From a virus (Duplodnaviria > Caudoviricetes), in the IMG/VR virus record IMGVR_UViG_3300032227_000993: DNA of 64,000 nt; one strand, 5' to 3'. The position numbers and the translations under genes are program-made. Positions 11,801 through 52,612 of the stretch are shown here, one piece after another. The notes under the pieces are model-generated. The model had not been told where the DNA came from. It ran no database searches and worked only from the letters and a program-made list of their open reading frames with translations. Position 1 is the first letter of the stretch. Each line of letters opens with the position of its first letter.

Positions 11801-11836
11801 TGATACGCCTAAAATTCCGTTTAAATTAATTGACAT
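5804..11836 (-). CDS. Giant tail/hair fibre protein (2010 aa) with coiled-coil stalk and YadA-like head repeats
   Basis: GNVTG/GNITG beta repeats, [VL]AN[TL]xxx heptads, 27 tandem xAIAIGxxAG repeats. Confidence 0.85.
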   Translation of the reverse strand: MSINLNGILGVSATGNITGNYILGNGSQLTGITTGNVNLTAVTTNVIPASNVTLSLGNSTNQWKDLWVSNNTIYLNSIPVSLTANNDLLVNNVPVVLSSNTAAPQTANIATTANIIAGNVVVSNATPGAGITFADGTVQTTAAGASNYGNANVADYLTTYTGNLTAGQFSTAGNIVAGGNVTANYFIGNGSLLSNINAANINGAYGNANVEAYLPSSNTIIAINANVANTNSNLANLTLVTANNTNSISQLQISTTEGVNALANTNANVANTNSNVANLTTSLANTDSNVSNVASNVTTLQGQVYANANVSAYLGNANTTGNIYATNINVSNTVTATTFIGNFQGNISGNLVVPGSNTWVIYNNNGNAGSDIGFTYNAATQTATVGNTISAGNILTAGLVSATGNVTGNYFIGNGSQLTGLPASYGNANVEAYLPTSNIIIGINSNVANTNGNVANLAIAQGNTNSNVANIASNVTTLQGQVYTNANTQSFLGAGTNAIISTTGNITTTANISGAYLLGNGAFISGLPAGYSNADVAAYLPTYSGNISNLTVTGNLIATTQGNSDNSNLVATTSFVQNVVTAAGGYGNANVEAYLPTSNTIIGINSNVANTNGNVANLTTSLANTNANVANTNSNVANLTLSLANTNADLANVEIQGAALGNAIVSTNANVANTNSNVANLTTNLSTTNNNLANTNSNVANLTTSLANTNANVANTNSNVANLTTSLANTDSNVANVASNVTTLQGQVYTNSNVSTFLESGTTSNIVTTGNLVSSYLYGDGSNITGLPANYGNADVSLYLASGNDTAGFTTAGDISANNIIANESIGSLLDGYFGGSINVEANAVVIGNVIGGYFTGDGSNLTGMYGNTQVGAYLPTYTGNIQAGNALITGNLVVQGTTTTVDSNNVSINDLVFNVANNANAAIYANGAGFGVGPANAEYATFTWASATDTWTVSNNLSAVGNITGSYFLGNGSQLTGMYGNTEVGAYLPTYSGAIGGTLTTNAQPNITSLGNLSALAVSGAVNSATLGVSGNATIGNLVVTGNVTLPGNINQITGNQGSFFGDSFGFGALYAGISSGFANLPATVTQFSANYPDYAQLNFQNINSGSGASADYVATADNGTNTTYYVDLGIASSTYDGLSANALGTSVRANDAYLYTFGNGAGDNGGNLILGAGTSGKEVKVIAGGGSTANIVGVFANTGLTVTGLVSATGNVISGNITTAGLVSATGNVTGGNVRTGGLVSATGNVTGGNISAVGLVSATGNISGNYFIGNGALLTGLAGTPTSLTNGTSNVTVAANANITMGITGTQSFNLSNTTVTIGFQAASNSQSVNAIAIGREAGANTQGTQAIAIGYLAGNSSQGSGAVGIGWQAGLTTQGAQSVAVGQGAGATTQGASSIAIGWQAGLTSQGTQAVAIGRLAGNSSQGGNSVAIGLNAGANTQGINSIAIGREAAANTQGGAAVAIGYSAGNSTQGNFGIAVGYLAGGNTQGTTAVAIGFQAGTTTQSANAVAVGYNAGAITQGLYTVALGFNAGYASQAQNGIAIGTNAGGNTQASGAVAVGALAGNAAQGTQAVAMGYNAGATTQGLQSVAIGANAGAGTQGQNAVAIGFGAAGTSQGNTAIAIGQLAGATSQGLGAVAIGTTAARTASGTRAISIGDSAAFSGSGTGAIAMGYQTSYFGSGSGAIAIGYQACGTAGAQGTQSIAIGASAAGNTQGNSAVAIGTGAGLTTQGANAVAIGTSAGANVQGINSIAIGRFAGQTTQVANSIILNGSGTAVNASNSGFYAAPVRNDTGNVTNAVYYNTTTKELTYGAGGGGSANSISNGTSNVSISSSDGNITMSVANSTAATFSNASVFFNNVRSDSGNTTNQLFYNTTTKEFTYNPVTSAVTTFATSTVTSNAVNSYDCTSSQIFYVDISAATANWGVNLANLTISNSAVAVVTLLLDPGGASTPLYTPYDAFQINGANTAVRWTNGVQPPIIAGFINTLSYSILNNGGNLLVLGSSTDYT
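6539..7840 (-). repeat. 27 tandem ~48-bp (16-aa) YadA/Hep-Hag-like coding repeats
   Basis: Counted 26 units of 16 aa and one of 18 aa, consensus xAVAIGxxAGxxTQGx. Confidence 0.9.
9600..10030 (-). repeat. Tandem 21/42-bp coding repeats encoding ANTNSNVANLTTSL heptads (shorter copies near 10430-10520 and 10940-11180)
   Basis: Recurrent near-identical DNA blocks such as gtatttgctaaacttgttgtcaa; heptad periodicity. Confidence 0.85.
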
Positions 11837-27036: not shown

Positions 27037-27363
27037 TTAGAAAGGGCTAAAACTACTGCCGCAACCGCAGGTAGTTGTGGCCTGCATGCCTGTTATTGTA
27101 AAGGAAGATCCATATGTGTCCTCTTTGTAGTCTACGGTAGCACCTTGTAAATAGCCGCCACTCATAGAATCCACAAGAACATGGATTCCGTCTTGTTCAA
27201 AGTCCCAATCATCTTCGGCTTGTTCTTCGTCTAGAGTAAATCCAGTCTGCATGCCTGAACAACCACCACCTTGAATAAACACCCGTAATTTAAGTTTAGG
27301 GTTCTTTTCTTCTGCTAAAATGTCTTTAATCTTGGTTGCTGCTGATTGTGTTATAGTAATCAT
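27037..27363 (-). CDS. erpA: A-type Fe-S carrier ErpA/IscA (HesB family)
   Basis: [12 protein letters not shown] and TTCGCGSSF; all three Cys present. Confidence 0.92.
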
Positions 27364-27364
27364 A

Positions 27365-27913
27365 TTAGATCCGTTCGGAACATACGTCCCAGTTGATAAT
27401 CTTCCAGATGTTATCTAGGTATTTTTCTTTGTCCCACTGGTATTCAAGGCTCCATGCATGCTCCCACCAGTCAACCAGTACACAGATATCTGTCCTAACC
27501 TGATGATTCGGGATGGTTTTAATCGTGCCCGATGTGCTAAGATATACCCAACCTGATCCCTGGATGGCCATGGCCACTTTTTTAAATTCAGCTTTGAAGT
27601 CTTCATATGTTTTAAAGTTTGATTCGATAAGTTCCAACACAGCGCCTCGTGGCTTGTTAGCACCTTTGGGTGCTTGTAGCTGTGGGAAAAACTTGTTGTG
27701 TAGGAAACTACCAGCACGATTAAAAGTGGCATCACCTTCGCCGGCATTGTAGCGTTTGGCGTAGCCTTTGGCTAGATGCTCGTAGTGATACTCGATTGTG
27801 GCAGCACTCATCACAGGCTCCAAGTCCTTGTGAGTGTAGGGCAATGGTGTAGTTTCCAGTTTGGCTGGAACTGTGCTGGCTTCTACTATGTTTATTGTTT
27901 CGCGGATATCCAT
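27365..27913 (-). CDS. sod: Fe/Mn superoxide dismutase (compact)
   Basis: LPY..DLEP, HYEH, LHN, QGSGW, DWWEHAW; all four metal ligands appear present. Confidence 0.9.
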
Positions 27914-27921
27914 ACTATTAC

Positions 27922-28140
27922 TTATCTACGGCGACTGATTCGGCCACGAGTTAAATCGTAAGGGCTAATTTCTACTTCTACAACGTCACCTTCTAATACC
28001 TTGATGTTATTTTGACGCATTCTACCAGACAAAGTAGCAAGAATTGGGGCTTCAAAATTCTCCAGCTTGACCCGATAATTGGTGTTGCGTAATACCTCAG
28101 TGATTACTCCGTCCAGTTTAATAATATTGTCTTTACTCAT
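27922..28140 (-). CDS. infA: Translation initiation factor IF-1
   Basis: 72 aa; YRVKLEN...LSGRMRQNNIKVLEGDVVEVEISPYDLTRGRI. Confidence 0.93.
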   Translation of the reverse strand: MSKDNIIKLDGVITEVLRNTNYRVKLENFEAPILATLSGRMRQNNIKVLEGDVVEVEISPYDLTRGRISRRR

Positions 28141-30972: not shown

Positions 30973-31118
30973 GTGCCATCTTTGTTATCAATCCATTCAA
31001 GTGTGTCGCCGACTTCCCAGCCGGCGGCTTCGCACACTTCATCGCCAAGATCCAAAATTAAGTCACCTGTTGCTGGATCCTTGACAATAGTTCTAGTCCA
31101 ATTACTTGGCTGTGGCAA
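30912..31118 (-). CDS. AbrB/MazE-like DNA-binding protein
   Basis: DPATGDLILDLGDEVCEAAGWEVGDTLEW swapped-hairpin pattern. Confidence 0.65.
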   Translation of the reverse strand: MPQPSNWTRTIVKDPATGDLILDLGDEVCEAAGWEVGDTLEWIDNKDGTWILRKKNTTLATTVTEQKL

Positions 31119-31293
31119 GTGCTTCTTTCTCAGCAGTAATTTCTTTACGACGCTCTTTGATGCCTTTGCTCATTTCTTGTAAGGCCTTGCGAGCACGGGC
31201 GGCTGCAGCTTTTACACCTTTGCCTGTAAACTTTTCGTTTTCTGCGATGTAATTATTAAATGCTGTTACGATTGCGTCATGTTGTTGTGACAT
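31102..31293 (-). CDS. Histone H1-like (Hc1-type) basic protein
   Basis: KFTGKGVKAAAARARKALQEMSKGIKERRKEI. Confidence 0.65.
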   Translation of the reverse strand: MSQQHDAIVTAFNNYIAENEKFTGKGVKAAAARARKALQEMSKGIKERRKEITAEKEALATAK

Positions 31294-31616: not shown

Positions 31617-32375
31617 TTATTTACGCTCAATATCTTCTTCTCGGCAGTTGGTACCATATTGTATTTCTATTATGCGGCAAGGAGATCCAAATGGATTAGT
31701 TAACTGATGCCACGCGCCTACCTGTATTTTGTATTCTTGGTGTGTGCTTAATAGCATTGGCGGTAATTGGTATCCATCTTCGGTAATGGTATTAACTGCG
31801 CAGGCACCTTCCTCTACTATCCAGTACTCAGCTCGTTCATTGTGCTTTTGCATACTCAAGCTCTTACCTGAGTCTACTGTAAGTTCTTTAACTTTCATGC
31901 CAGGTGCTTCGTGTAGTACTCGATAGTAACCCCATTGACGTTCGGTCTTGGGTGCTTTCCATTCTTGTAAAATCCAACTGCTACTATTGGCCTTGTCCTC
32001 ACCGCCTACCCCAAATACAAATTCTACACCAGGTACACTCATTTCTGGAATGTTGTCTTGTGTACGATCACCGCCATTGGCAAAAATAATATGCGCCTCT
32101 GGATAATGAGCGCGAACCTGTTCCAACAAGTGACAAGCGGTACCGTCACTGTCATCAAAAGTGTAAACTTCTTCAACTGCGGCTAGATTGTTGACTACGC
32201 ATAAGCGTTCAGTCCAGGGCATGAAAGCACGGCCCTTTTTACGGGCCAGCCACTCGTCGCTGTTAATACCTACAATTAACATATCGCCCAGCAAACGTGC
32301 TTGTTTGATCAATTTAATGTGACCTGAGTGTAACGGATCGAATCCGCCACTACATACTACAATTTTTGTTTTCAT
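31617..32375 (-). CDS. Bifunctional cytidylyltransferase-like (HIGH) plus mannose-6-phosphate-isomerase-type cupin
   Basis: SGGFDPLHSGH, IFANGGDR; ERQWGYYRVL, SLSMQKHNERAEYW, WHQLTN, IIEIQYG. Confidence 0.85.
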   Translation of the reverse strand: MKTKIVVCSGGFDPLHSGHIKLIKQARLLGDMLIVGINSDEWLARKKGRAFMPWTERLCVVNNLAAVEEVYTFDDSDGTACHLLEQVRAHYPEAHIIFANGGDRTQDNIPEMSVPGVEFVFGVGGEDKANSSSWILQEWKAPKTERQWGYYRVLHEAPGMKVKELTVDSGKSLSMQKHNERAEYWIVEEGACAVNTITEDGYQLPPMLLSTHQEYKIQVGAWHQLTNPFGSPCRIIEIQYGTNCREEDIERK

Positions 32376-32657: not shown

Positions 32658-34073
32658 TCAGCGGGCCAGCAAGTCCGGTAGTACTAGTTTATGTACTGTA
32701 ACTGTAGATGTGGCCACTTGCTGTGGTTCTAGGGCTGTTACCTTGGGAGCATTAGCGTCACGCTCAAAGTTACCAGCTACTACTTCTAAGTCCTGTACCG
32801 TTAAGTTGCCGGCCAATTGCTTGAGCTTTAGTGTAGCGGCTAGGTAAGTGTATTTGGCCTGTGCTAAATCTTTCTGGGCTGTAACCAGGACTTTTTCAGC
32901 CAATAGTACATCAACTGAAATACGCTCACCGGCCTGTACACTTTTACGCATGGCCTTGGTTAATTCGCTACCGGATTCAACAGCACGTTCTAATGCTGCT
33001 ACCTTTTGACGGCTGGATACCACTAGGTCATATTGCCGACGTAATTCTGTAATCACACGACTGCGAACAGCTTCTGTATCAGCTTGTGCTTTTTCCCAAT
33101 TGGCATTGGCCTGTTTAGTTAGACCATATGTTTGTCCGCCGTTGCTCAATTGCCAAGTTGCTTGTACACCAACCATGGTGCTGTTGGCAGTTTGGTTAAT
33201 GGTAGAAACATAGTAAGAACTTTGTTGGTTGTATTGCGCAATAGCAGAGATGACCGGCGCATTGTTGCTTATCTGTTTGTTGTATTCTTGTTTGGCCGCT
33301 TCTTCGCTATTTTTGGCCGCAGCAATCTCTGCGTTGTTAGATAACGCTGTGTCTTGCCATTGGTCAAATGTCATTGCGACCGGAGAAACTTTAAAGTTTG
33401 TGCTTAATTTTTTAACTTCGGCAGCCGAGTTTAATTTAACACCCATCATTGCTTCTAGTTTACGACGAGCATTTTCTAAGTTGTCTTTGGCTTCGATAAC
33501 CTGTACATCAGCTAACTCAAAACTTGCCTTGGTTTCTAGCACTTCGGTCACTGTGCCATCACCGGCCCGAAGTCTACGTTCATTGATGGTCACTTGCTCT
33601 CGGTACGCATCACGTTGTGCTGTGTAGTAAGTAATTTGATCACGATAAAATAATACTTCTGTGTAGGCCTGTGTAGTACGCACCAATAACTCTTGTGAGT
33701 TGTGTACAAACTTGGACCGGGCCATGTCTGCTTGTGCGTAGCCTTGTTTGGCACTGGCCCAGGCATTCAAGTTGATCAATGCTTGTGTAAGTTGTACACC
33801 ACCGTTGGTACTTGGATAGGTCATGTTATTTGTTGAATAACCTGTTTGACTAATCCTAGTGGCGTTGCTTGCTTGATAAAAGTTAGCAGATATCTGTGGT
33901 AACAAACCAGCACGACCAATAATCTTGTTAGCATCTCCGGCTTCAAACTCTTTGGTCGCTACCTTGTATGCTGGATCGTTCACAAGGGCTAGGTCATATG
34001 CCTGCATCAAATCTAGGGCATTGGCATTAGACATTAGCAACGCGGTTGATACAGCTAACAGTGACTTCTTCAT
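32658..34073 (-). CDS. prtF: TolC-family type I secretion outer-membrane protein (PrtF/AprF-like)
   Basis: Signal peptide; LMQAYDLALVNDP, GRAGLLPQIS, two-repeat OEP pattern, GERISVDVLLAE. Confidence 0.92.
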   Translation of the reverse strand: MKKSLLAVSTALLMSNANALDLMQAYDLALVNDPAYKVATKEFEAGDANKIIGRAGLLPQISANFYQASNATRISQTGYSTNNMTYPSTNGGVQLTQALINLNAWASAKQGYAQADMARSKFVHNSQELLVRTTQAYTEVLFYRDQITYYTAQRDAYREQVTINERRLRAGDGTVTEVLETKASFELADVQVIEAKDNLENARRKLEAMMGVKLNSAAEVKKLSTNFKVSPVAMTFDQWQDTALSNNAEIAAAKNSEEAAKQEYNKQISNNAPVISAIAQYNQQSSYYVSTINQTANSTMVGVQATWQLSNGGQTYGLTKQANANWEKAQADTEAVRSRVITELRRQYDLVVSSRQKVAALERAVESGSELTKAMRKSVQAGERISVDVLLAEKVLVTAQKDLAQAKYTYLAATLKLKQLAGNLTVQDLEVVAGNFERDANAPKVTALEPQQVATSTVTVHKLVLPDLLAR

Positions 34074-34074
34074 A

Positions 34075-35073
34075 TTATTCCTCGCGTAGTGCTGAATGAG
34101 CACGGTCTACAACAGGTTTAAACAAATAGGATAATAATGTGCGTTCACCAGTTACCACAAACACTTCAGTTGGCATACCCGGACGTACTTGATTACTTGC
34201 TAATAACTTCTTACCAGCAGGAGTTACCTCTACTTGTATCTTGTAATAAGACATTCCTGACTTGGGATCTTGTGTAGTATTGGCCGCTACCCTAGTAACT
34301 GTTGCTGGAATACTAGGAGTGGTACTTTGATTAAATGCCGGAAACATTACTTCAACTGGAAGACCCTTGTGTACCTTGTCAATCATGTTGGTCGGCAAGT
34401 GTGCTTCTACTACCAAGGGCATATTTTGCGGGACCACTTCCATTACCTTGGTACCTGCTTGGATAACTGCGCCTGGATTGTACACTTCCAAATTGGCCAC
34501 TGTACCACTCACCGGAGCCTTGAGTTCTGCGTTGGCAAGATCAAAGTCACTAGCTGGTAGTTTGGCCTGTTCTTCGGCCAAGGCTGAACTGACCTGCGAA
34601 TAGTTGCGTTCTGCGTCAATCAACTTGTTGCGTGACATATAACCGTCTTTGGCCAGTTCACGATAACCTGCTAACTGTTCTTTGATCAAGACCAGTTGGC
34701 GTTGTTTACTAGCAATAGATTCACGGAGTGCTGTGTTCTGTGCTGTTTGCTGTGTAGCGTTCATACGAGCTAGGACTTGTCCTGCCACGACTTGGTCGCC
34801 TTCTTTGACCAGGATTTCTTTAACGATGCCGCCTTGTGCTGACTGGATAGTTTGACGATGACCGTCTGTGATGACTACGCCTGCGGCTGGTACACCTTTG
34901 TCTAACGGAGCAAGACCTGCCCACAGCATAAAGCCGCCAAATCCTACAGCTACAACCAACATACCAACACGAGCGTAATGTGTTTCATCTTGCTCGATAT
35001 CTTTGTTAACAGTAGCTTCTGCTACCACATTAAACTTGTGTTTGAGCCAGTTTTTAGATTGTGTTTTTAACAT
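34075..35073 (-). CDS. prtE: HlyD-family type I secretion membrane fusion protein (PrtE/AprE-like; short)
   Basis: N-terminal TM (FGGFMLWAGLAPLD), GGIVKEILVKEGDQV, LKAPVSGTV, RPGMPTEVFVVTGERTLLSYLFKP. Confidence 0.92.
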   Translation of the reverse strand: MLKTQSKNWLKHKFNVVAEATVNKDIEQDETHYARVGMLVVAVGFGGFMLWAGLAPLDKGVPAAGVVITDGHRQTIQSAQGGIVKEILVKEGDQVVAGQVLARMNATQQTAQNTALRESIASKQRQLVLIKEQLAGYRELAKDGYMSRNKLIDAERNYSQVSSALAEEQAKLPASDFDLANAELKAPVSGTVANLEVYNPGAVIQAGTKVMEVVPQNMPLVVEAHLPTNMIDKVHKGLPVEVMFPAFNQSTTPSIPATVTRVAANTTQDPKSGMSYYKIQVEVTPAGKKLLASNQVRPGMPTEVFVVTGERTLLSYLFKPVVDRAHSALREE

Positions 35074-35077
35074 ATTA

Positions 35078-36778
35078 TTACTCACTTGGTTGTGCCTCAC
35101 GGTTTAAATTCATAATGTCCGACAATACCTTGTCTGTGGTACCAAATGCTGTCATCATACCGCCGTGTAAGACCATTAGCTGTGTGGTCTCTTGGATAAT
35201 GTCCGGACGATGTGTGATCAATACAACTGTAGTGCCAGCCAAACGCAACTGTCTAATGGCGTTTGTCAAGGCTGACTCACCCACTTGGTCCAAGTTTGAA
35301 TTGGGTTCGTCTAGAACAACCAAAGCTGGATCATTGTAAAGAGCACGGGCCAGGGCTACACGTTGTTTCTCTCCGCCTGATAGACCTGTACCATCTACGC
35401 CAATTGTAGTATCGTAACCGTTGGGCATACGCAAGATCATATCGTGTACTCCAGCCAGTGTTGCGGCTTTAACTACTGCTTGAGAATCAATGTTGCCAAA
35501 CCTAGCAATGTTCTCACTGATAGTACCAGCAAATAGCTCAATGTCTTGTGGCAAGTAACCAATGTTGGGTCCTAACTCATCCTTGTTCCACTTGCTAATA
35601 TCCGCACCATCTAGTCGTACTGTACCAATTGTTGGAGCACCAATGCCTACCAACAACCTAGCTAATGTAGATTTACCTGCGCCCGACTGACCAATAATGC
35701 CCAAGCAATCACCTGCGTCAATACCAAAGTTCAAGTTCTTTAATACTGCAGCTGTGGTACCTACTGGCGCCGCTGTTACGCCTTCTACATTCAATCGACC
35801 TACGGGTTTAGGTAATGTCATGCCCGGCCTACGAGCTGGGTTTTTAGATAACAATAGATCCAGTCGCTTGTAGGCACTGACCACGCCAGCCCATTGACGC
35901 CATACTCCAATGATTTGTTCTACTGGGGCAAGTGTACGTCCCAACAAAATACTAGCAGCAATCATCATACCCGAAGTTACTTGGCCTTTGATCACTAGCC
36001 ATGCTGCTACACCAAGTATCAAACTCTGTGCCGCGGTGCGAACAAATTTGGTAACAGCCGCAATCTTGTGAGCTCGTTGGCTAGCAGTTTGTTGCAAGGA
36101 TAAAAACTTGCTGTGTTCACTGTACCAACGTTGGCGCATATTAGGTAACATACCCATGGCATCGATCACTTCTGCGTTACGCAACGTATTACCAGCCATG
36201 TTGGTAGATCTCACACTGGCATCACTTGCTTCAGTCAAGGCCTTGTGAGATACCAACTCGTTAATCCAAGCAAGACCTACCAGCAATATTGTACTCAGTA
36301 AAGCAAATACGCCTAGCCATGGATTAAAAATAAAGATAATAGCAAGATAAATTGGAAACCAAGGAGCGTCAAAAAACGCAAACACACCTGTGCCAGTTAC
36401 AAACTGCCTGATAGTGCTCAAGTCATTCAAGGCTTGTCCAGCATTTACTCCATCTTTGGTCAAGTTCTGTTCAAACGCCGCGGTGTAAACACGTTGATTT
36501 AATTCAACGTCTATCTTGGCACCTACTCGTAACACGACCATGCTGCGAAAATATTCAATAACAGAAGTTAGTGCGTAAAGACCTGCGGCCATCACAGTAA
36601 GCATGACCAATGTGTATTGATTATGACTTGCTAACACTCTATCATAAACTTCCATCATGTACATGGATGGAACCAAAAGCAAAATGTTAATTACCACAGT
36701 AAAGATACCGATAGCATAAAACACCTGCTTGAATTTGTAAAGTGTTTGAACTATTTCGTTTTGATTATTTTCGCGCAT
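35078..36778 (-). CDS. prtD: PrtD/AprD-family type I secretion ABC transporter
   Basis: SMYMMEVYDRVL, FFDAPWFP, Walker A GQSGAGKST, YLPQD, LSGGEKQR, LDEPNSNLD, ITHR. Confidence 0.95.
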   Translation of the reverse strand: MRENNQNEIVQTLYKFKQVFYAIGIFTVVINILLLVPSMYMMEVYDRVLASHNQYTLVMLTVMAAGLYALTSVIEYFRSMVVLRVGAKIDVELNQRVYTAAFEQNLTKDGVNAGQALNDLSTIRQFVTGTGVFAFFDAPWFPIYLAIIFIFNPWLGVFALLSTILLVGLAWINELVSHKALTEASDASVRSTNMAGNTLRNAEVIDAMGMLPNMRQRWYSEHSKFLSLQQTASQRAHKIAAVTKFVRTAAQSLILGVAAWLVIKGQVTSGMMIAASILLGRTLAPVEQIIGVWRQWAGVVSAYKRLDLLLSKNPARRPGMTLPKPVGRLNVEGVTAAPVGTTAAVLKNLNFGIDAGDCLGIIGQSGAGKSTLARLLVGIGAPTIGTVRLDGADISKWNKDELGPNIGYLPQDIELFAGTISENIARFGNIDSQAVVKAATLAGVHDMILRMPNGYDTTIGVDGTGLSGGEKQRVALARALYNDPALVVLDEPNSNLDQVGESALTNAIRQLRLAGTTVVLITHRPDIIQETTQLMVLHGGMMTAFGTTDKVLSDIMNLNREAQPSE

Positions 36779-36790
36779 GATTGTCTTCTA

Positions 36791-37882
36791 TTAAAGAGCA
36801 TTAAGGGTAGCGGCAATTTGTCCTGACACTGGACTAGACCATAAGTCAACACCCAATCTGGCCATTTGCTGATAGCCGGGACCACTGGTAACATACCAAG
36901 GATCATATTCACCAATGGTAACACCCTTGACTCCAGCATTTTTTGACACATTGACAAAGGCCTGATAAGCCATTACCTGCTCTTGATGATTGGTTTGTAT
37001 GCTATTGAGCGCACCTGGGTTAGAAAGGAATAACTGCCATGCTGATGTGCCTGTGCCTACGCCGGCTTGTGCTTCATCGTTGTAGTGGGCAATAAATGTT
37101 TTGTTACCATAAGCATCGGCCATATTTTTTAACAGTTGTGCGTGACCTGTAGCGTTCCAACCTGCTTCGATTTGTGCCACACTAGTGCCGGTACCGATGG
37201 GTGGTTTGACTTGATAATCTACAATATTGACCATGCCAAACACTGAGTTATTGTAAAATGCTTCGTAGCCAACTGGTCCGCTGTAGGCAGATTTAACTGC
37301 GGCGATCACTGGGGCAAAATATGCTTGAGCATTGGCACCAGTATCAAATCCCAAGTTATTACTGCCAACAAAAAAGCCATCTACCTTGTGTGCTTGTGCT
37401 TGTGCCGCAAGACCTTTGTCATAAGCCGCTACGTTGGCCCATACTTGGCTGGCACTAACCCCGGCAGCCAACGGTGAGCTTGAAGTAAACGCAGGGTCAG
37501 CTGCGTTGACTGATCCGTCTGGGTTAACACCAATGTCCACACTGGCCTTGATGTAAACTTTAAGACCAATATTTTTAGCATAGTCTACAATAGACCAAAA
37601 GTCTTTTGGTAACGGATGGCCAGCACTATCAATGCTGCCATCTTTGGCGTTGACGGAAACCTGAGCGGCCATGGTCACAGTATTGTACCCTTCGGCCTTT
37701 AGCTGTGCCAACTTTGGGTTGATGTTACCGGCTGTATTGGCTCCGCCCATTTCGTAACGTATATCTAAGTAAGTATTTTTAATTGCCATTCCTGGACTCC
37801 CTGTTTGAGGACCGGCCGAAGAACCTCCGCCGCTGCTACCACCCCCAAAAAGACTTCCAAAGAAATCAAAAAAACCGGACAT
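36791..37882 (-). CDS. Putative T1SS cargo: GH113/clan GH-A-like TIM-barrel protein, apparently non-catalytic
   Basis: LKAEGYNTVTM, IVDYAKNIGLKVYIK, AQAHKVDGFFVGSN, VIAAVKSAYSGPVGY follow GH113 order; 13 nt upstream of prtD. Confidence 0.55.
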   Translation of the reverse strand: MSGFFDFFGSLFGGGSSGGGSSAGPQTGSPGMAIKNTYLDIRYEMGGANTAGNINPKLAQLKAEGYNTVTMAAQVSVNAKDGSIDSAGHPLPKDFWSIVDYAKNIGLKVYIKASVDIGVNPDGSVNAADPAFTSSSPLAAGVSASQVWANVAAYDKGLAAQAQAHKVDGFFVGSNNLGFDTGANAQAYFAPVIAAVKSAYSGPVGYEAFYNNSVFGMVNIVDYQVKPPIGTGTSVAQIEAGWNATGHAQLLKNMADAYGNKTFIAHYNDEAQAGVGTGTSAWQLFLSNPGALNSIQTNHQEQVMAYQAFVNVSKNAGVKGVTIGEYDPWYVTSGPGYQQMARLGVDLWSSPVSGQIAATLNAL

Positions 37883-37902
37883 GATAGTTCCTTCATTGTT
37901 TG

Positions 37903-37927
37903 AAACGGGGGCCTAAGCCCCCTGTTT
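37903..37927 (-). terminator. GC hairpin (weak terminator or mRNA stabiliser) at the head of the T1SS operon
   Basis: GGGGGC-CTAA-GCCCCC with only a short U-tract. Confidence 0.55.
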
Positions 37928-37928
37928 G

Positions 37929-38261
37929 TTAAGCTGCAACCTTGGCTTTTGCTTTGGTTGCTACCTTGGCACCTGCGACTTTGATTTCGCCTTTCTTAGC
38001 GATCTTGGTCTTTTCTGCTAGTTTAGCAGATACTGCGTAACCTGCGTCACCTAAGGTAAATGCTTCACCTTGGGCTTGTAGATACTGTAGTGCCTCGAGC
38101 TTGGTCATTGGCTGTGGAAGCTCAATGAGATTGATGTTAGTACAATTATTTTTGTTAAGGATCTTGATACGAGCTACCAAGTCATTAGCAAAACGAGCCT
38201 TGACTGTACCGTCAGGGTTAGTTGCTGTACCTGCTACTGTAAACATTTTTTCTGATGCCAT
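37929..38261 (-). CDS. Hypothetical basic phage protein
   Basis: ORF with Lys/Ala-rich tail, downstream of a sigma70 promoter. Confidence 0.65.
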   Translation of the reverse strand: MASEKMFTVAGTATNPDGTVKARFANDLVARIKILNKNNCTNINLIELPQPMTKLEALQYLQAQGEAFTLGDAGYAVSAKLAEKTKIAKKGEIKVAGAKVATKAKAKVAA

Positions 38262-49255: not shown

Positions 49256-52200
49256 ATGACAATTAGACTCGACAGTGACTTAGGAATAAGCGCAACTGGT
49301 AATATTACTACAGATAATTATTTTATTGGTAATGGATCGCAACTCACAGGCATTGCTGCTTCGTATGGCAACGCCAATGTAACGACCTTACTAAGCGGTG
49401 GTACATTCACCGGCAATATTATTCCAGCTGGCAATGCTACACAGAGCCTGGGTAATGCCACTAATCAATGGAAAGACTTATGGGTCAGCAATGCCACTAT
49501 CTACATCAACAGTATTCCCTTGGGAGTAGGCAACACAGGTGTGCTACAGTTCGACGGTAACGATATTGTCACGTCCGGTCCTAATGTAATTAACACAGGT
49601 AATGTTGAAACTTCAGGTGATGTGATTGGAGGCAATTTGGTCATAGCCACTGGTGGGTTGACCTTTGCTGATGGGTCTGTACAAACAAGTGCTTACGGCA
49701 ATGCCAATGTTGAAGCCTATTTGCCTTCAAGCAATACTATTATCAGTATCAACAGTAATATTGCCAATACAAACAGTAATGTTGCTAATTTGTCATTAGA
49801 AGTAGCTAATCTTGCTACCTCAAGTTCTTTGGCCAACACCAACGCCAATGTGGCCAACTTGACTACAGATTTAGGCAATACCAATAGCAACGTGACCAAC
49901 TTATCTAATGCGTTGGGCAATACCAATGGCAATGTGGCCAACCTTGTTACTATCACAACCAACACAGATAGTAATGTGGCCAATTTGACTACAGATTTGG
50001 CCAATACCAATAGTAATGTTAGTAATTTAACCAGCACCGTTAGTGACCAAGGCAATGCCATTGCTAACTTGCAAGGCTCAACTTATTCTAATGCCAATGC
50101 TTCGGGTTTCTTGGCAGCCTTTGGGTCCAACACAATCAGTACCACGGGCAATATCACTGTTGGCGATGTTACTTTGAATAACCTTTACTCGCCCAACTAT
50201 TTTGCTAATGCCATAGCGTTTGCTAATGCTACTGGTTATGTCACTACCAGTAGTTTATTCAAGTACAATCCTGGCACAGAAGTCCTCACAGTAGGCGCCA
50301 TATCTACCACAGGTAACATCACTGGCAATTACATTATTGGCAATGGTAGCTTGTTGTCTAACATCACTGGTGCCAATGTAACAGGTGAAGTGGCTGTGGC
50401 CAACACAGTGAGCAATCCTACACAATCAAATATTACAGCCTTAGGCACTATAACATCGTTGACTGCCAATGGCATACAAGTTAACGGACAGTTTACTGCC
50501 AATGGCAACGCACAGTTTAACGACAATGTTTACTTTGCCGGCAATGTTTCTCTTGCTGGTAATATTACACAGATTAGTGGTAACTCGGGTCAGTTCTTTG
50601 GAAACACAGTAACAGGTTTTGACGCCCTCTATGCTGGCTTACCTTCTGGTTACACATTGTTGCCGCAGGAAGTAATTAACTTTACTACTAACTACGATGG
50701 CTACTCACAAGTGTTGGCTCGTAATATTAATACAGGTTCACAATCAACTACAGACTTTGTGGCAACATCTGACAACGGTACTGACGTTGCTAACTTTGTT
50801 GACTTAGGTGTTGCTGGATCAGGGTACAACGGCGCAGTAGCCAATAATAGTTTAGGAACTTCTGTATTCCCTAACGACTCTTACCTGTATGCTCAAGGCA
50901 ATACCAACGGTGGTAACTTAATTCTAGGTTCTAACCAAGCCAACGGTGTTGTTCGTATTATTGCTAACGGTCAAAGTAATATTGCCAATGTTGTTGCTAC
51001 ATTTAGCAGTAGCGGTATTAAACTTCCTGATACAATAACTATTGGTCCTGACTCAGGTAACTCCTACTTAACATTAGACAGATTTGGTATTACTGCTAAT
51101 ACACAAATGGTTCTAGCGGCGGCCAACGCATCCAGCGGCAACAACTCGTCAGTCTTGTTTGACAAAAACGGTGGCGGCATTACCTTACAGTTAGAAACTA
51201 ATGTTGGTCCTTCCCAAGCACTATGGAGATTCTACTCTGGTAACTTGACATTCCCAGATGGCTCCTCACAAACTACAGCATACGGCAATGCCAATGTAGC
51301 CGCTTACTTGCCAACATACACTGGCAACTTAACTGCTGGTAATCTTTTTGCTGGCGCCAACGGAGCAGTCTTAAACGACGGCGCTACTACTACATTTACA
51401 GGTGGCTGGAATGGCGCCAACGGCTACATTGGTGGCATTTCGATGCAGGCCATTGGCGATATAACTATCGAAGCCGCTAATCAGTTAACAGTATCAGCCG
51501 GCAATACAGCATACTTTACTGTTACATCTGGAAACGGCGTTTCTCTTGAAAGTAATCTTGTAGCAACTAACGGAAATTACAACATCACTGGATTTGATAC
51601 TGTTAGTGCTAACATTATTAGTGCTACTGGTAATATTACTGCTCGATCTGGAACCGCGTTTACTGAAATATCACCTGCGTACATACAGTTAGGCAACGAG
51701 CAAGGAGCTACACCGTATATTGATTTTAATAGTAGTACTGCTCTTGGCGATTACGATTCAAGAATTATTGCATCAGGCGGCAGTAATATTGGTGTTCCTG
51801 GTCAAGGCAATTTGGAGATTATTGCCAGCACACTAACAATAACAGGTGCAAACTTATTAGCTACTGGAAACATTAGTGCTACTGGTAATATTACCGGTGA
51901 CTATGCCTTGTTTAACGATATTCAGTTAAACGACTTATCAGCTAATGCTATTTTGTACACAGATGCTAACCGAAACGTTTGGAATACAGACTTTAGTTAC
52001 GACTCTACCAATAACACAATGTCAGGTGGTAATATTAGTGTCACTGGAAATGTAACAGCTGGTTACTTTATTGGTGACGGTAGTTTATTAACTGGTTTAC
52101 CTGCTGGTTACAGCGATGCCAACGTGGTTACCTTGTTAAGTGCCTTTGGTAGCAACACAATATCTACATCGGGCAATGTTAGCACTGGTAATATTGTAAC

Positions 52201-52612
52201 AGGTACTGGCACAGGCGGTAACATCACAGGTGTTAACATCATGTCAGCCAACGTGTTTATTGGAGACGGTGGTAACTTAACTAACTTGCCTTCCTCTGGT
52301 CTAGTAGTTGACTCAATGACTTCGGGTGCTAACATTACTGCTTCAGTAAACGATACACAGTACAACGTAACAGCCTTAGCTGTAAGTGCTAACGTAACTG
52401 CTCCTACTGGTGTTGCGCAAGACGGTCAGAAGTTAACTTATCGTATCGTTGACAACGGTACTCCACAAGCATTATCATGGGATCCTATCTATCAAGTTAT
52501 TGGCGTTACATTGCCAACAACTACAGTAGCCAGCAAATATGTTTATGTTGGTGTAATTTACAACGATCAAGATACAACGTGGGATGTAGTATCAGTGGCA
52601 CAGCAGGCTTAA
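49256..52612 (+). CDS. Giant fibre protein (1118 aa), paralog of 5804..11836
   Basis: Shared SATGNIT, LGNATNQWKDLWVSN, ANTNSNV heptads, GQFFG..GFDALYAG, DFVATSDNG modules. Confidence 0.85.
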   Translation: MTIRLDSDLGISATGNITTDNYFIGNGSQLTGIAASYGNANVTTLLSGGTFTGNIIPAGNATQSLGNATNQWKDLWVSNATIYINSIPLGVGNTGVLQFDGNDIVTSGPNVINTGNVETSGDVIGGNLVIATGGLTFADGSVQTSAYGNANVEAYLPSSNTIISINSNIANTNSNVANLSLEVANLATSSSLANTNANVANLTTDLGNTNSNVTNLSNALGNTNGNVANLVTITTNTDSNVANLTTDLANTNSNVSNLTSTVSDQGNAIANLQGSTYSNANASGFLAAFGSNTISTTGNITVGDVTLNNLYSPNYFANAIAFANATGYVTTSSLFKYNPGTEVLTVGAISTTGNITGNYIIGNGSLLSNITGANVTGEVAVANTVSNPTQSNITALGTITSLTANGIQVNGQFTANGNAQFNDNVYFAGNVSLAGNITQISGNSGQFFGNTVTGFDALYAGLPSGYTLLPQEVINFTTNYDGYSQVLARNINTGSQSTTDFVATSDNGTDVANFVDLGVAGSGYNGAVANNSLGTSVFPNDSYLYAQGNTNGGNLILGSNQANGVVRIIANGQSNIANVVATFSSSGIKLPDTITIGPDSGNSYLTLDRFGITANTQMVLAAANASSGNNSSVLFDKNGGGITLQLETNVGPSQALWRFYSGNLTFPDGSSQTTAYGNANVAAYLPTYTGNLTAGNLFAGANGAVLNDGATTTFTGGWNGANGYIGGISMQAIGDITIEAANQLTVSAGNTAYFTVTSGNGVSLESNLVATNGNYNITGFDTVSANIISATGNITARSGTAFTEISPAYIQLGNEQGATPYIDFNSSTALGDYDSRIIASGGSNIGVPGQGNLEIIASTLTITGANLLATGNISATGNITGDYALFNDIQLNDLSANAILYTDANRNVWNTDFSYDSTNNTMSGGNISVTGNVTAGYFIGDGSLLTGLPAGYSDANVVTLLSAFGSNTISTSGNVSTGNIVTGTGTGGNITGVNIMSANVFIGDGGNLTNLPSSGLVVDSMTSGANITASVNDTQYNVTALAVSANVTAPTGVAQDGQKLTYRIVDNGTPQALSWDPIYQVIGVTLPTTTVASKYVYVGVIYNDQDTTWDVVSVAQQA

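What the first reader, a model, noticed from the sequence alone, without database searches (positions are those of the whole stretch)
32658..37882. Phage-encoded complete type I secretion system with its own candidate cargo
Seen: four co-directional, tightly packed genes (gaps of 1-12 nt) encode a 363-aa candidate cargo, a full-length PrtD-type ABC transporter (Walker A/B, LSGGE signature and H-loop all intact), a HlyD-family adaptor and a TolC-family outer-membrane channel with a signal peptide. They sit among ordinary small phage genes with no integrase, IS or host housekeeping genes around them. Established: cargo-ABC-MFP-OMP is the layout of PrtDEF/AprDEF protease exporters and of S-layer exporters such as Caulobacter RsaA/RsaDEF and Serratia SlaA/LipBCD. 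A self-contained three-component T1SS is not a standard feature of lytic phage genomes. Inference: the infected cell is made to export a phage protein to its surface or surroundings. Possible roles are superinfection exclusion or receptor masking, anti-grazing coating, adhesion, or glycan binding. This is the strongest candidate for an undescribed system in the window.
Basis: partly seen in the sequence, partly recalled or inferred. Interest (0 to 1): 0.9.

Follow-up and report, generated by a model that had tools for sequence, protein, structure and literature searches.

The report
Jumbo phage carries its own secretion system
A 361-kb freshwater jumbo phage carries a complete three-part bacterial protein-export machine (type I secretion system) captured from a host-like bacterium, next to a sugar-cleaving-type enzyme that it probably pushes out of the infected cell; no phage-encoded system of this kind turned up in the cultured-phage records or papers searched.

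Summary
Four tightly packed minus-strand genes encode:
- a GH113-like TIM-barrel protein (36791-37882);
- a PrtD-type ABC exporter (35078-36778);
- a short HlyD/LipC-type adaptor (34075-35073);
- a TolC-type channel with a signal peptide (32658-34073).

All three machine parts score above NCBIfam's curated type I secretion system (T1SS) cut-offs.

The setting is a jumbo phage, not a chimera. The same module lies on several separately recorded contigs, the longest 361 kb. It sits collinearly in a conserved phage backbone in relatives that are 70-91% identical. Between phage copies all four genes give dN/dS of 0.05-0.2.

The phage ABC proteins form one clade. Its sister is an uncultured low-GC freshwater Burkholderiales lineage whose chromosomal T1SS locus carries the ortholog of the "cargo".

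The cargo call is plausible but unproven.
- For: it has no Sec signal; distant homologs are lipoproteins or RTX fusions; it lies next to T1SS genes in three lineages.
- Against: it has no RTX repeats, no separate C-terminal signal domain and no GH113 acid/base glutamate, and one 110-kb relative keeps the T1SS without an adjacent copy.

No phage T1SS was found in the literature searches. Only one cultured-phage record, an unverified one that looks bacterial, holds a closely similar T1SS.

The parts
36791..37882 (-). Candidate cargo: a GH113-like (beta/alpha)8 barrel protein of 363 aa. An alternative start at 37789 gives 332 aa.
   Evidence: - Pfam GH113 scores 26.5 bits, just under the cut-off of 27.
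- The AlphaFold model has pLDDT 91.
- The best solved-structure matches are GH113 beta-mannanases, TM 0.75-0.77.
- It has no Sec signal and no RTX repeats.
- It is 78-82% identical to the gene directly upstream of the ABC gene in related phage contigs.
37790..37882 (-). N-terminal 31-residue extension of the cargo: a short hydrophobic, amphipathic peptide (SGFFDFFGSLF) followed by a Gly/Ser-rich linker.
   Evidence: - The motif M-G-[IL]-F-D-F-L-G-x-[IL]-F-G-G plus a Gly/Ser linker is conserved in 7 of 15 family members. One of them is a divergent lineage, L160.
- It is disordered in the model.
- It is absent at the DNA level in L001.
- It occurs on no other protein of the window.
35078..36778 (-). 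PrtD-type T1SS ABC permease/ATPase, 566 aa, with no N-terminal C39 or C39-like domain.
   Evidence: - TIGR01842 scores 743.6 bits against a cut-off of 510 and covers the whole model.
- The motifs are intact.
- The best solved relative is Aquifex PrtD 5L22 at 513 bits.
- It belongs to a phage-only clade with 100/100 support.
34075..35073 (-). HlyD/LipC-type periplasmic adaptor, 332 aa, with an N-terminal membrane helix and a shortened alpha-hairpin.
   Evidence: - TIGR01843 scores 277 bits against a cut-off of 209, in 3 stretches.
- The best solved relative is Serratia LipC 5NEN. About 100 LipC hairpin residues (about 89-160 and 220-248) have no counterpart.
- The bacterial sister locus has the same short length, 337 aa.
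32658..34073 (-). TolC-family outer-membrane channel, 471 aa, with a cleavable signal peptide.
   Evidence: - TIGR01844 scores 258 bits against a cut-off of 225, with two OEP repeats.
- The signal peptide ends in ANA.
- It is 70-91% identical in related phage contigs.
37907..37922 (-). G+C-rich hairpin between the upstream 110-aa gene and the cargo gene.
   Evidence: - The stem is GGGGGC/GCCCCC.
- It is conserved in L001 with a changed loop base.
- The tail has few T residues, so it is at most a weak terminator or an RNA-processing or stabilising element. This reading is inference.

Best explanation
**What it is.** The window is part of a roughly 361-kb jumbo myovirus-like phage of an uncultured freshwater Burkholderiales host. 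An ancestor of this phage group captured a block from a host-like bacterial chromosome. The block was a PrtD/LipBCD-type type I secretion system (T1SS) plus the GH113-like gene lying next to it. The phage lineage has kept all four genes under purifying selection.

**Proposed mechanism (inferred).**
- During infection the phage makes its own ABC exporter, short adaptor and TolC-like channel.
- These form an ATP-driven conduit across both membranes that does not depend on the host's TolC.
- Through it the phage exports the GH113-like protein, which has no Sec signal, unfolded and C-terminus first.
- Outside the cell the protein folds into a TIM barrel. It then binds or cuts a surface or extracellular polysaccharide such as capsule, EPS, O-antigen or matrix.
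- The most likely pay-off is destruction or masking of the receptor glycan. That would give superinfection exclusion and keep progeny from being lost on infected cells and debris.
- An alternative pay-off is loosening of the capsule or matrix before lysis.

**The window's allele.** It carries an extra N-terminal amphipathic peptide plus a Gly/Ser linker. By analogy with the lipid-anchor plus poly-Gly linker of lipoprotein homologs, this may keep the enzyme tethered at the cell surface. The short forms would be released.

**Shown versus inferred.**
- Shown: gene content, family membership of the three machine parts, phage context, bacterial origin, conservation, selection, and the fold of the candidate cargo.
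- Inferred: that the system is assembled, that this protein is its cargo, the enzyme's substrate, and the benefit to the phage.

**My odds.**
- A real phage-borne intact T1SS: about 0.9.
- The GH113-like protein is a cargo: about 0.6.
- The stated ecological role: about 0.3.
- The confidence of 0.6 given for this explanation is for the core claim: a functional phage T1SS that exports this protein.
For: **Machine**
- All three parts pass the curated T1SS cut-offs.
- The ABC motifs are intact.
- The closest solved relatives are PrtD, LipB and LipC.

**Phage context**
- The T4-type clamp loader has its best hits, 52%, in PA5oct-like jumbo phages.
- A virion protein is shared with the Phosso, Atu_ph07 and RaK2 jumbo phages.
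- The window also holds baseplate-like proteins, an endolysin and PhoH.
- Most neighbouring genes have no family hit.

**Not a chimera**
- An identical arrangement lies on 4 contigs held under three separate sample records. These are a 361,177-bp scaffold, a 56-kb contig and a 13-kb contig; the fourth was collapsed as a similar place.
- In L001 and L088 24 ORFs match the window collinearly, and the flanking genes are about as divergent as the T1SS genes.

**Long residence and function**
- The phage ABC clade has 100/100 support and sits on a stem of 0.42.
- dN/dS is 0.05-0.2 for all four genes between phage copies.

**Origin**
- The sister clade (99/94 support) is the bacterial L087/L002 locus type.
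- That locus is ordered GH113-like, RTX protein, ABC, MFP of 337 aa, TolC, then the GH113-like ortholog.
- It lies between umuDC/phasin and dnaX-ybaB-recR.

**Cargo link**
- The GH gene lies directly upstream of the ABC gene in every phage-clade contig whose upstream DNA is held. These run from 84% to 100% ABC identity.
- The same arrangement is found in a divergent lineage, L160 (ABC 61%, cargo 50%).
- None of the close family members has a signal peptide. About 17 distant homologs are lipoproteins with poly-Gly linkers.
- About 13 distant homologs have one or more GGxGxD nonapeptides, and 9 of 50 scanned match Pfam HemolysinCabind. Several of these end in the acidic-plus-hydrophobic tail typical of T1SS substrates.
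- Glycanases exported by a T1SS are established for Rhizobium PrsDE with PlyA and PlyB (PMC9298526, PMC2275737).
Against: - The candidate cargo has no RTX repeats.
- It has no separate C-terminal domain. Its last helix is modelled at high confidence right to the C-terminus, and I read it as part of the barrel. Its tail, TLNAL, lacks the acidic-plus-hydrophobic motif seen in the RTX-fused homologs.
- A 110-kb relative keeps ABC, adaptor and TolC in the same context with no GH gene beside them.
- The donor locus also holds an RTX protein that looks like a more classical cargo.
- The GH113 acid/base Glu is replaced by N175, and that column is variable across the family. Hydrolytic activity is therefore uncertain.
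- The adaptor lacks about 100 hairpin residues relative to LipC. How the periplasm is spanned is unclear.
- In L088 the adaptor gene carries a 1-nt deletion. This is either a sequencing error or a sign that the gene is dispensable.
- No expression or export data exist.
- No capsid, portal or terminase gene lies inside this 64-kb window.
Confidence: 0.6

Rival explanations
1. The phage T1SS is real and functional, but its main cargo is something else. That could be another phage protein encoded elsewhere in the 361-kb genome, or a host RTX protein. The GH113-like protein would then be an accessory enzyme that stays inside the cell, for example held at the inner face of the membrane by its amphipathic N-terminus and acting on lipid-linked glycan precursors.
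For: - The 110-kb relative has the T1SS without an adjacent GH gene.
- The donor locus carries an RTX protein and a 496-aa unknown protein between the first GH gene and the ABC gene.
- The cargo candidate lacks RTX repeats and a recognisable C-terminal signal.
- The N-terminal peptide resembles an in-plane membrane anchor (reading of the sequence).
Against: - No RTX protein, and no other protein with the N-terminal motif, lies in the window or in the related phage loci.
- The wider family is extracytoplasmic, made up of lipoproteins and RTX fusions.
- Adjacency of the GH gene and the ABC gene recurs in three lineages.
- Only 64 kb of the genome could be read, so cargo encoded elsewhere cannot be excluded.
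Confidence: 0.22
2. The module is a passenger (moron) recently picked up from the host, with no role in the phage life cycle and possibly decaying.
For: - Its bacterial origin is clear.
- The module's GC content is slightly above the rest of the window, 45.1% against 42.8%.
- L088 has a frameshifted adaptor gene.
- One relative lacks the adjacent GH gene.
Against: - The phage clade sits on a long stem and has diversified down to 83% ABC identity while keeping gene order.
- dN/dS is 0.05-0.2 in all four genes.
- The module is present in contigs from several lakes and samples.
Confidence: 0.08
3. The stretch is bacterial. Either a host fragment was mis-joined into a phage contig, or the whole contig is a bacterial or plasmid element.
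For: - The genes are typical bacterial genes, with about 70% identical chromosomal relatives.
- No capsid or terminase gene lies inside the window.
- GenBank 'phage' records with T1SS genes look like host DNA.
Against: - The same junctions occur on four contigs from three separate sample records, and in divergent relatives with collinear phage flanks.
- Phage hallmark genes lie on both sides.
- The phage-specific ABC clade is shorter (562-566 aa) than its bacterial relatives (mostly 583-640 aa).
- Nearly all neighbouring genes lack family hits, unlike the bacterial contigs L002 and L087.
Confidence: 0.03
4. The three-part pump exports a small molecule or peptide, acting as an efflux or immunity pump like MacAB-TolC, rather than a protein.
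For: - ABC, adaptor and TolC tripartite pumps also serve efflux.
- The adaptor hairpin is as short as in efflux adaptors.
Against: - The ABC protein matches the protein-exporting PrtD subfamily over its full length, far above the cut-off. Its scores against efflux and lipid exporters are far below their cut-offs.
- The adaptor's best relatives are LipC and the AprE-type domains.
Confidence: 0.05

Closest known systems
Serratia marcescens LipBCD, Erwinia/Dickeya PrtDEF, Pseudomonas AprDEF and Aquifex PrtD: T1SS whose ABC protein lacks a C39 or C39-like domain
   Same: - Same three components, in the same ABC, adaptor, outer-membrane-protein gene order, with the candidate cargo gene alongside.
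- The ABC protein is a full-length TIGR01842 member, and its best solved relatives are PrtD 5L22 and the LipB nucleotide-binding domain.
- The adaptor's best solved relative is LipC 5NEN.
   Different: - It is encoded by a jumbo phage.
- The adaptor lacks about 100 hairpin residues.
- The candidate cargo is a GH113-like barrel with no RTX beta-roll, not a serralysin, lipase or S-layer protein.
Chromosomal T1SS locus of an uncultured low-GC freshwater Burkholderiales lineage (contigs L087 and L002)
   Same: - It is the sister clade of the phage ABC proteins.
- Identity to the window is ABC 71%, adaptor 57% and TolC 57%.
- It has the same short adaptor, 337 aa.
- It carries the ortholog of the phage cargo, 59-64% identical.
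   Different: - The bacterial locus has a second, only 26% identical GH113-like gene, an RTX protein and, in L087, a 496-aa unknown protein.
- Its cargo ortholog lies after TolC on the opposite strand.
- It has no N-terminal extension.
- Its ABC protein carries a longer C-terminal tail.
Rhizobium leguminosarum PrsDE T1SS with the EPS glycanases PlyA and PlyB and the Rap proteins
   Same: A T1SS that exports polysaccharide-cleaving enzymes and calcium-binding matrix proteins to remodel the cell's own exopolysaccharide (PMC9298526, PMC2275737, PMC3034196). This is the closest functional analogy for the donor locus and for the proposed phage use.
   Different: The enzyme fold and sequence family are different. 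The system is bacterial, not viral. No sequence relationship was tested here.
GH113 beta-1,4-mannanases (AaManA 3CIV/4CD7, AxMan113A 5YLH, BaMan113A 7DV7)
   Same: - Same (beta/alpha)8 clan GH-A fold, TM 0.75-0.77 on the target.
- Weak but consistent Pfam GH113 matches in 49 of 50 family members.
- A Glu (E325) sits at the end of the strand expected to carry the nucleophile.
   Different: - Identity is 13-18%.
- The Pfam score is just below the gathering cut-off.
- The acid/base Glu of the GCE motif aligns with N175, a variable column.
- The residues conserved instead are D40, R42, D129, D180, Y206 and Q302.
- It may be a separate, uncharacterised family with another substrate or chemistry.
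Phage polysaccharide depolymerases and receptor-destroying enzymes (tailspike or soluble forms)
   Same: If the proposed role is right, this is a phage enzyme acting on the host's surface glycan for the benefit of progeny. The comparison rests on inference and my own knowledge of the field.
   Different: Known depolymerases are virion parts or are released at lysis. Here the enzyme would be pumped out of the living infected cell through a phage-built channel.

Membership tests
Type I secretion system, PrtD/LipB group | ABC half-transporter of the T1SS PrtD subfamily, scoring above the curated cut-off | tested here: met
   TIGR01842 scores 743.6 bits against a cut-off of 510, covering model positions 2-543 of 544.
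Type I secretion system, PrtD/LipB group | Intact ATPase motifs: Walker A, signature, Walker B with catalytic Glu, and H-loop | tested here: met
   GQSGAGKST (K369), LSGGE, VLDE (D490, E491) and ITHRP (H523) were read in the translation. They are invariant in the alignment with bacterial relatives.
Type I secretion system, PrtD/LipB group | No N-terminal C39 peptidase or C39-like domain, which separates this group from the HlyB and bacteriocin groups | tested here: met
   The protein is 566 aa. The HlyB and LssB models match only from their positions 132-138 onward and fall below their cut-offs.
Type I secretion system, PrtD/LipB group | HlyD-family T1SS periplasmic adaptor | tested here: met
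   TIGR01843 scores 277 bits against a cut-off of 209. The AprE-type hairpin and barrel Pfam families also hit. The best solved relative is LipC, with about 100 hairpin residues missing.
Type I secretion system, PrtD/LipB group | TolC-family outer-membrane channel with a signal peptide | tested here: met
   TIGR01844 scores 258 bits against a cut-off of 225, with two OEP repeats. The signal peptide was read directly.
Type I secretion system, PrtD/LipB group | Substrate with an uncleaved C-terminal secretion signal | tested here: inconclusive
   - The C-terminus IAxTLNAL is conserved.
- It is modelled as a confident helix running to the protein's end, which I read as part of the barrel.
- It lacks the acidic-plus-hydrophobic tail of the RTX-fused homologs.
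- No predictor or assay was available.
Type I secretion system, PrtD/LipB group | RTX nonapeptide repeats in the substrate (typical, but not obligatory) | tested here: not met
   There is no GGxGxD motif in the candidate cargo or in any ORF of the window. Of 50 distant homologs scanned, 9 do carry HemolysinCabind repeats.
Type I secretion system, PrtD/LipB group | ATP-dependent one-step export shown experimentally | not testable with these tools
   This needs reconstitution with a tagged cargo and a Walker A mutant.
Glycoside hydrolase family 113 (clan GH-A) | (beta/alpha)8 fold like solved GH113 enzymes | tested here: met
   The model has pLDDT 91. The top 15 Foldseek matches are all GH113 mannanases, with E-values of 1e-11 to 1e-14.
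Glycoside hydrolase family 113 (clan GH-A) | Pfam PF22612 at or above the gathering score | tested here: not met
   The score is 26.5 bits against a cut-off of 27. The miss is marginal: 49 of 50 relatives match at E below 0.001.
Glycoside hydrolase family 113 (clan GH-A) | Acid/base Glu at the end of strand 4 (the GCE motif) | tested here: not met
   In the profile alignment to 5YLH the Glu of the GCE motif falls on N175. That column is N, F, G, L, Y or M across the family. That this Glu is the catalytic acid/base rests on my memory of the GH113 literature.
Glycoside hydrolase family 113 (clan GH-A) | Nucleophile Glu at the end of strand 7 | tested here: inconclusive
   E325 in GEYDPW ends strand 320-326 and is Glu in 35 of 50 relatives. 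No residue-level structural superposition was available.
Tailed jumbo phage | Phage hallmark genes flanking the module, with relatives among isolated jumbo phages | tested here: met
   - The clamp loader matches phrog_168 at 3e-76 and is 52% identical to PA5oct-like phages.
- The window holds virion, baseplate-like and tail-fibre-like proteins and an endolysin.
- The related contig is an IMG/VR viral genome.
Tailed jumbo phage | Major capsid, portal and terminase genes on the same molecule | not tested
   None lies in the 64-kb window. The rest of the 361-kb scaffold could not be read here.

The most novel reading that the evidence does not exclude
A virus builds its own complete trans-envelope secretion machine and uses it, before lysis, to pump out or surface-display a glycan-active enzyme that remodels the infected cell's surface or matrix. 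The enzyme would work as a receptor-destroying or matrix-loosening factor. Two allelic forms would exist, one tethered through an N-terminal amphipathic tag and one released. This would be the first virus-encoded secretion system with a dedicated cargo, and a new class of phage auxiliary function.
Probability: 0.4. Interest if true: 0.85.

Novelty: new variant of a known kind. Interest (0 to 1): 0.72.

Why it matters
**How phages normally reach the outside.** They rely on host export routes, virion-bound enzymes or lysis to act outside the cell. A phage lineage that keeps, under selection, a self-sufficient ABC, adaptor and TolC channel plus a candidate exported enzyme would show that large phages can reprogram the cell envelope and the extracellular space during infection.

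**Testable questions it opens**
- Which surface glycan does the enzyme target?
- Does export give superinfection exclusion or easier release of progeny?

**Other uses**
- It offers a compact, naturally minimised T1SS (566, 332 and 471 aa, with a short-hairpin adaptor) and an RTX-free cargo. Both bear on how substrates are recognised and how the periplasm is spanned.
- It is a clear, datable case of a multi-gene machine moving from host to virus.

Tried and rejected
**Searches that gave nothing**
- No whole genome is held for the window.
- Megablast of 30-41 kb against GenBank phages found nothing.
- A scan of 185,579 species genomes for the cargo family found no relative.
- No tRNA gene lies in the window.
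- Six literature searches, plus a text search of the 'huge phages' paper, found no phage-encoded T1SS. This shows only that it is absent from the library that is held.

**Phage records with T1SS genes**
- The tblastn hits to 'phage' records with ABC or TolC genes are short unannotated fragments, mislabelled bacterial contigs, or the UNVERIFIED Pseudomonas phage Y12 record.
- The Y12 region shows many long overlapping ORFs (which I take as a sign of high G+C; not computed) and a further efflux-type adaptor next to the T1SS.
- I did not count these as real phage T1SS. I did not prove Y12 to be host DNA.

**Host naming**
- Cluster look-ups gave no organism names.
- The nearest named genomes are Burkholderiales at 56-62% ABC identity.

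**Promoters and terminators.** The consensus scans were not above the shuffled expectation (24 against 18.7 expected, and 11 against 8.7). No promoter is claimed.

**Ideas considered and dropped**
- The 110-aa gene upstream as cargo: it has a Lys/Ala-rich, histone-like tail and looks cytoplasmic.
- The N-terminal extension as a double-glycine leader: the fit is poor and the ABC protein has no C39 peptidase domain.
- The cargo as a lysis enzyme: a T1SS bypasses the periplasm, and a separate endolysin gene is present.

Full report
**1. The observation**

ORF listing shows four co-directional minus-strand genes at 32658-37882.

Curated models identify the three machine parts:
- A PrtD-type T1SS ABC permease/ATPase: TIGR01842, 743.6 bits against a cut-off of 510.
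- A HlyD-family T1SS adaptor: TIGR01843, 277 bits against 209.
- A TolC-family T1SS outer-membrane protein: TIGR01844, 258 bits against 225.
- Pfam gives matching domains.

The ABC motifs are intact. They are Walker A GQSGAGKST (K369), signature LSGGE, Walker B VLDE and H-loop ITHRP. TolC has a signal peptide ending in ANA.

Relatives and independent gene calls place the adaptor start at 35073 (332 aa) and the TolC start at 34073 (471 aa). The intergenic gaps are then 12, 4 and 1 nt.

The closest solved relatives are Aquifex PrtD (5L22), the Serratia LipB nucleotide-binding domain and Serratia LipC. This is therefore a Lip/Prt-type system whose ABC protein has no C39 or C39-like domain. About 100 residues of the LipC alpha-hairpin have no counterpart in the adaptor.

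**2. Is it really in a phage?**

No whole genome is held for the window. The ABC protein is recorded on a 361,177-bp metagenome scaffold. It is also recorded, with the same neighbours, on a 56-kb contig and a 13-kb contig from other sample records. In all, 4 contigs carry it.

Phage features in the window:
- A T4-type clamp loader (phrog_168, 3e-76) whose best relatives are PA5oct-like Pseudomonas jumbo phages (52%), followed by Phosso, SCTP-2, Atu_ph07 and Erwinia jumbo phages.
- A 934-aa virion protein shared with Phosso, Atu_ph07 and RaK2.
- Baseplate-wedge-like proteins, an endolysin and PhoH.
- A 1118-aa protein whose last 80 residues are 54% identical to the tail fibre of a Methylophilaceae phage.
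- Most other genes have no Pfam hit. In the bacterial contigs discussed below, nearly every gene has one.

Two related contigs were compared with the window: L001 (IMG/VR, 42 kb) and L088 (JGI, 30 kb).
- They share 24 collinear ORFs with the window on both sides of the module.
- Their identities are in the same range as those of the T1SS genes.

A chimera or a bacterial contig is therefore very unlikely. No capsid, portal or terminase gene lies inside these 64 kb, and the rest of the scaffold could not be read.

**3. Origin and persistence**

Protein search shows a tight group of ABC proteins, 562-566 aa long and at least 83% identical. Identity then drops to 72% or less, mostly in longer (583-640 aa) bacterial proteins.

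A maximum-likelihood tree gives this picture:
- The phage sequences form one clade (100/100 support) on a long stem (0.42).
- Its sister (99/94 support) is a metagenomic bacterial clade.
- The whole group lies inside Burkholderiales.
- The nearest named genomes are 56-62% identical.

The sister clade is represented by contigs L087 (182 kb) and L002 (37 kb), which have about 45% GC.
- Their locus lies between umuDC/phasin and dnaX-ybaB-recR.
- The gene order is GH113-like, then a 496-aa unknown protein (L087 only), an RTX protein, ABC, a 337-aa adaptor, TolC and, on the other strand, a second GH113-like gene.
- That second gene is the ortholog of the phage 'cargo', 59-64% identical. The first GH113-like gene is only 26% identical.
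- The ABC, adaptor and TolC proteins are 71%, 57% and 57% identical to the window's.

The phage thus took the machine and its neighbouring enzyme from such a locus. It lost the RTX gene and moved the enzyme gene to the head of the operon.

Between phage copies dN/dS is 0.05-0.2 for all four genes. dS is near saturation, so these values are rough.

Contig names point to freshwater lakes, among them Trout Bog.

**4. The candidate cargo**

The family is tiny at close range, with 13 proteins among 5.8 billion. A profile search reaches 149 distant relatives.

The AlphaFold model is confident (pLDDT 91) and shows a (beta/alpha)8 barrel with a disordered N-terminal 31 residues. The 15 best solved-structure matches are all GH113 beta-mannanases, and the Atlas search agrees.

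It is not a clean GH113 member:
- Pfam scores 26.5 against a cut-off of 27.
- In a profile alignment to 5YLH the acid/base Glu of the GCE motif falls on N175, which is a variable column.
- The conserved residues are D40, R42, D129, D180, Y206, Q302, P328 and W329. E325 is Glu in 35 of 50 relatives and sits where the nucleophile is expected.
- The chemistry and the substrate are open.

Evidence that it is exported by the T1SS:
- It lies directly upstream of the ABC gene in every phage-clade contig whose upstream DNA is held, from 84% to 100% ABC identity.
- The same holds in a divergent lineage, L160 (ABC 61%, cargo 50%).
- Its ortholog flanks the bacterial T1SS.
- It has no signal peptide, while the wider family is extracytoplasmic.
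  - About 17 of roughly 60 distant homologs are lipoproteins with a poly-Gly linker after the lipobox cysteine.
  - About 13 carry at least one GGxGxD nonapeptide.
  - 9 of 50 scanned match Pfam HemolysinCabind, 8 match DUF4214 and one matches a serralysin C-terminal domain.
  - Several end in tails such as DDFIL or NDFTII.
- Glycanases exported by a T1SS are established for Rhizobium PrsDE with PlyA and PlyB (PMC9298526, PMC2275737).

Evidence against:
- It has no RTX repeats.
- It has no separate C-terminal domain.
- A 110-kb relative keeps the T1SS in the same context with no GH gene beside it.
- The donor locus has an RTX protein that could be the primary cargo.

**5. The N-terminal extension**

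The window's allele starts 31 codons upstream of the start used in L001, and L001 lacks this DNA.

The peptide M-G/S-[IL/F]-F-D-F-[LF]-G-x-[LI]-F-G-G followed by a Gly/Ser/Pro linker is conserved in 7 of 15 family members, including L160. It occurs on no other protein in the window.

Read as a helix it is amphipathic. That is my own reading of the sequence.

Its build, a hydrophobic element followed by a Gly-rich linker and then the barrel, mirrors the lipid anchor plus poly-Gly linker of the lipoprotein homologs.

T1SS substrates leave the cell C-terminus first; this is established knowledge, not tested here. An N-terminal anchor could therefore hold the enzyme at the surface. This is inference.

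**6. Mechanism proposed**

During infection the phage would assemble its own ABC, adaptor and TolC conduit and export the GH113-like protein. Outside the cell the protein would act on a surface or matrix polysaccharide. The likely benefit is receptor destruction or masking, or loosening of capsule or matrix before lysis.

My odds are:
- An intact phage-borne T1SS: about 0.9.
- The GH113-like protein is a cargo: about 0.6.
- The stated role: about 0.3.

Rival explanations are another cargo (0.22), a functionless passenger (0.08), small-molecule efflux (0.05) and an artefact or bacterial contig (0.03).

**7. Novelty**

- TolC homologs were found in only 6 of 50,697 GenBank phage records. None of the six looks like a genuine phage locus, and one is an UNVERIFIED, unannotated record.
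- A scan of IMG/VR for PrtD-type ABC genes found only this clade, one 12.7-kb contig that looks bacterial and one fragment.
- No paper describing a phage T1SS was found.
- The machine itself is an ordinary family member. What is new is the viral carrier, the RTX-free GH-like cargo candidate with an optional N-terminal tag, and the short adaptor.

Noticed in passing
Related 110-kb contig (ENA ERZ1426856); corresponds to window 32658-38261: This relative has ABC, adaptor and TolC in the same neighbourhood (metallophosphoesterase, GT4, LPD29 and the 109-aa gene), but the GH113-like gene is missing between the 109-aa gene and the ABC gene.
   Followed up: partly
L088:11706-12704 (JGI 3300071517): The adaptor gene carries a single-base deletion near codon 61 that splits it into 65-aa and 282-aa ORFs. 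This is either a sequencing error or decay of the gene in that phage.
   Followed up: partly
window 27037-28140 and 41920-42357, and the neighbouring rubredoxin-like gene listed: There is a cluster of redox and stress auxiliary genes around the module: Fe-superoxide dismutase, an IscA-like Fe-S protein, rubrerythrin and rubredoxin. Relatives add AhpC and AhpD-like (CMD) genes. An eIF-1a/IF1-like protein and an Hc1 histone-like protein (31102-31293) are also present.
   Followed up: no
window 31617-32375 and 39338-40333: Glycan-related genes flank the module. One is a 252-aa fusion of a nucleotidyltransferase (similar to RfaE domain II) with a cupin of the mannose-6-phosphate-isomerase C-terminal type. 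The other is a GT4 glycosyltransferase. GT4 is conserved in L001 and in the 110-kb relative, whereas the fusion gene is not. A link to the GH113-like protein is possible but was not tested.
   Followed up: partly
window 49256-52612: The last roughly 80 residues of a 1118-aa protein are 54% identical to the tail-fibre protein of Methylophilaceae phage P19250A. This hints at a freshwater betaproteobacterial host or a shared receptor-binding or chaperone module.
   Followed up: no
L004:9992-11704 (IMG/VR contig of 228 kb): A second, unrelated large viral contig encodes a 570-aa protein with a GH113-like domain (31% identical) fused to two DUF4214 domains. It lies near a GDP-mannose-dehydratase-type epimerase and a DegT aminotransferase, with no T1SS within 10 kb.
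   Followed up: partly
L001:3435-6425: Three radical-SAM genes lie on the opposite strand between GT4 and the LPD29 gene in this relative. The window has none at that position.
   Followed up: no
window 34075-35073: The T1SS adaptor is unusually short at 332 aa. About 100 residues of the LipC hairpin are absent, and the ABC protein has no large periplasmic domain. The bacterial sister locus shares this build. How such a system spans the periplasm is unexplained.
   Followed up: partly
window 5804-11836: A 2010-aa ORF has no PHROG hit, and no Pfam hit is on record for it. A 583-aa protein in L001 matches part of it at 37% identity.
   Followed up: no
GenBank OQ572413.1 (L089): The 'UNVERIFIED Pseudomonas phage Y12' record (61 kb, no annotation) holds an AprDEF-like T1SS. 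Its ABC protein is 54% identical and its TolC 38.5% identical to the window's. The region has many long overlapping ORFs and a further efflux-type adaptor, so it looks like bacterial DNA rather than a phage locus.
   Followed up: partly
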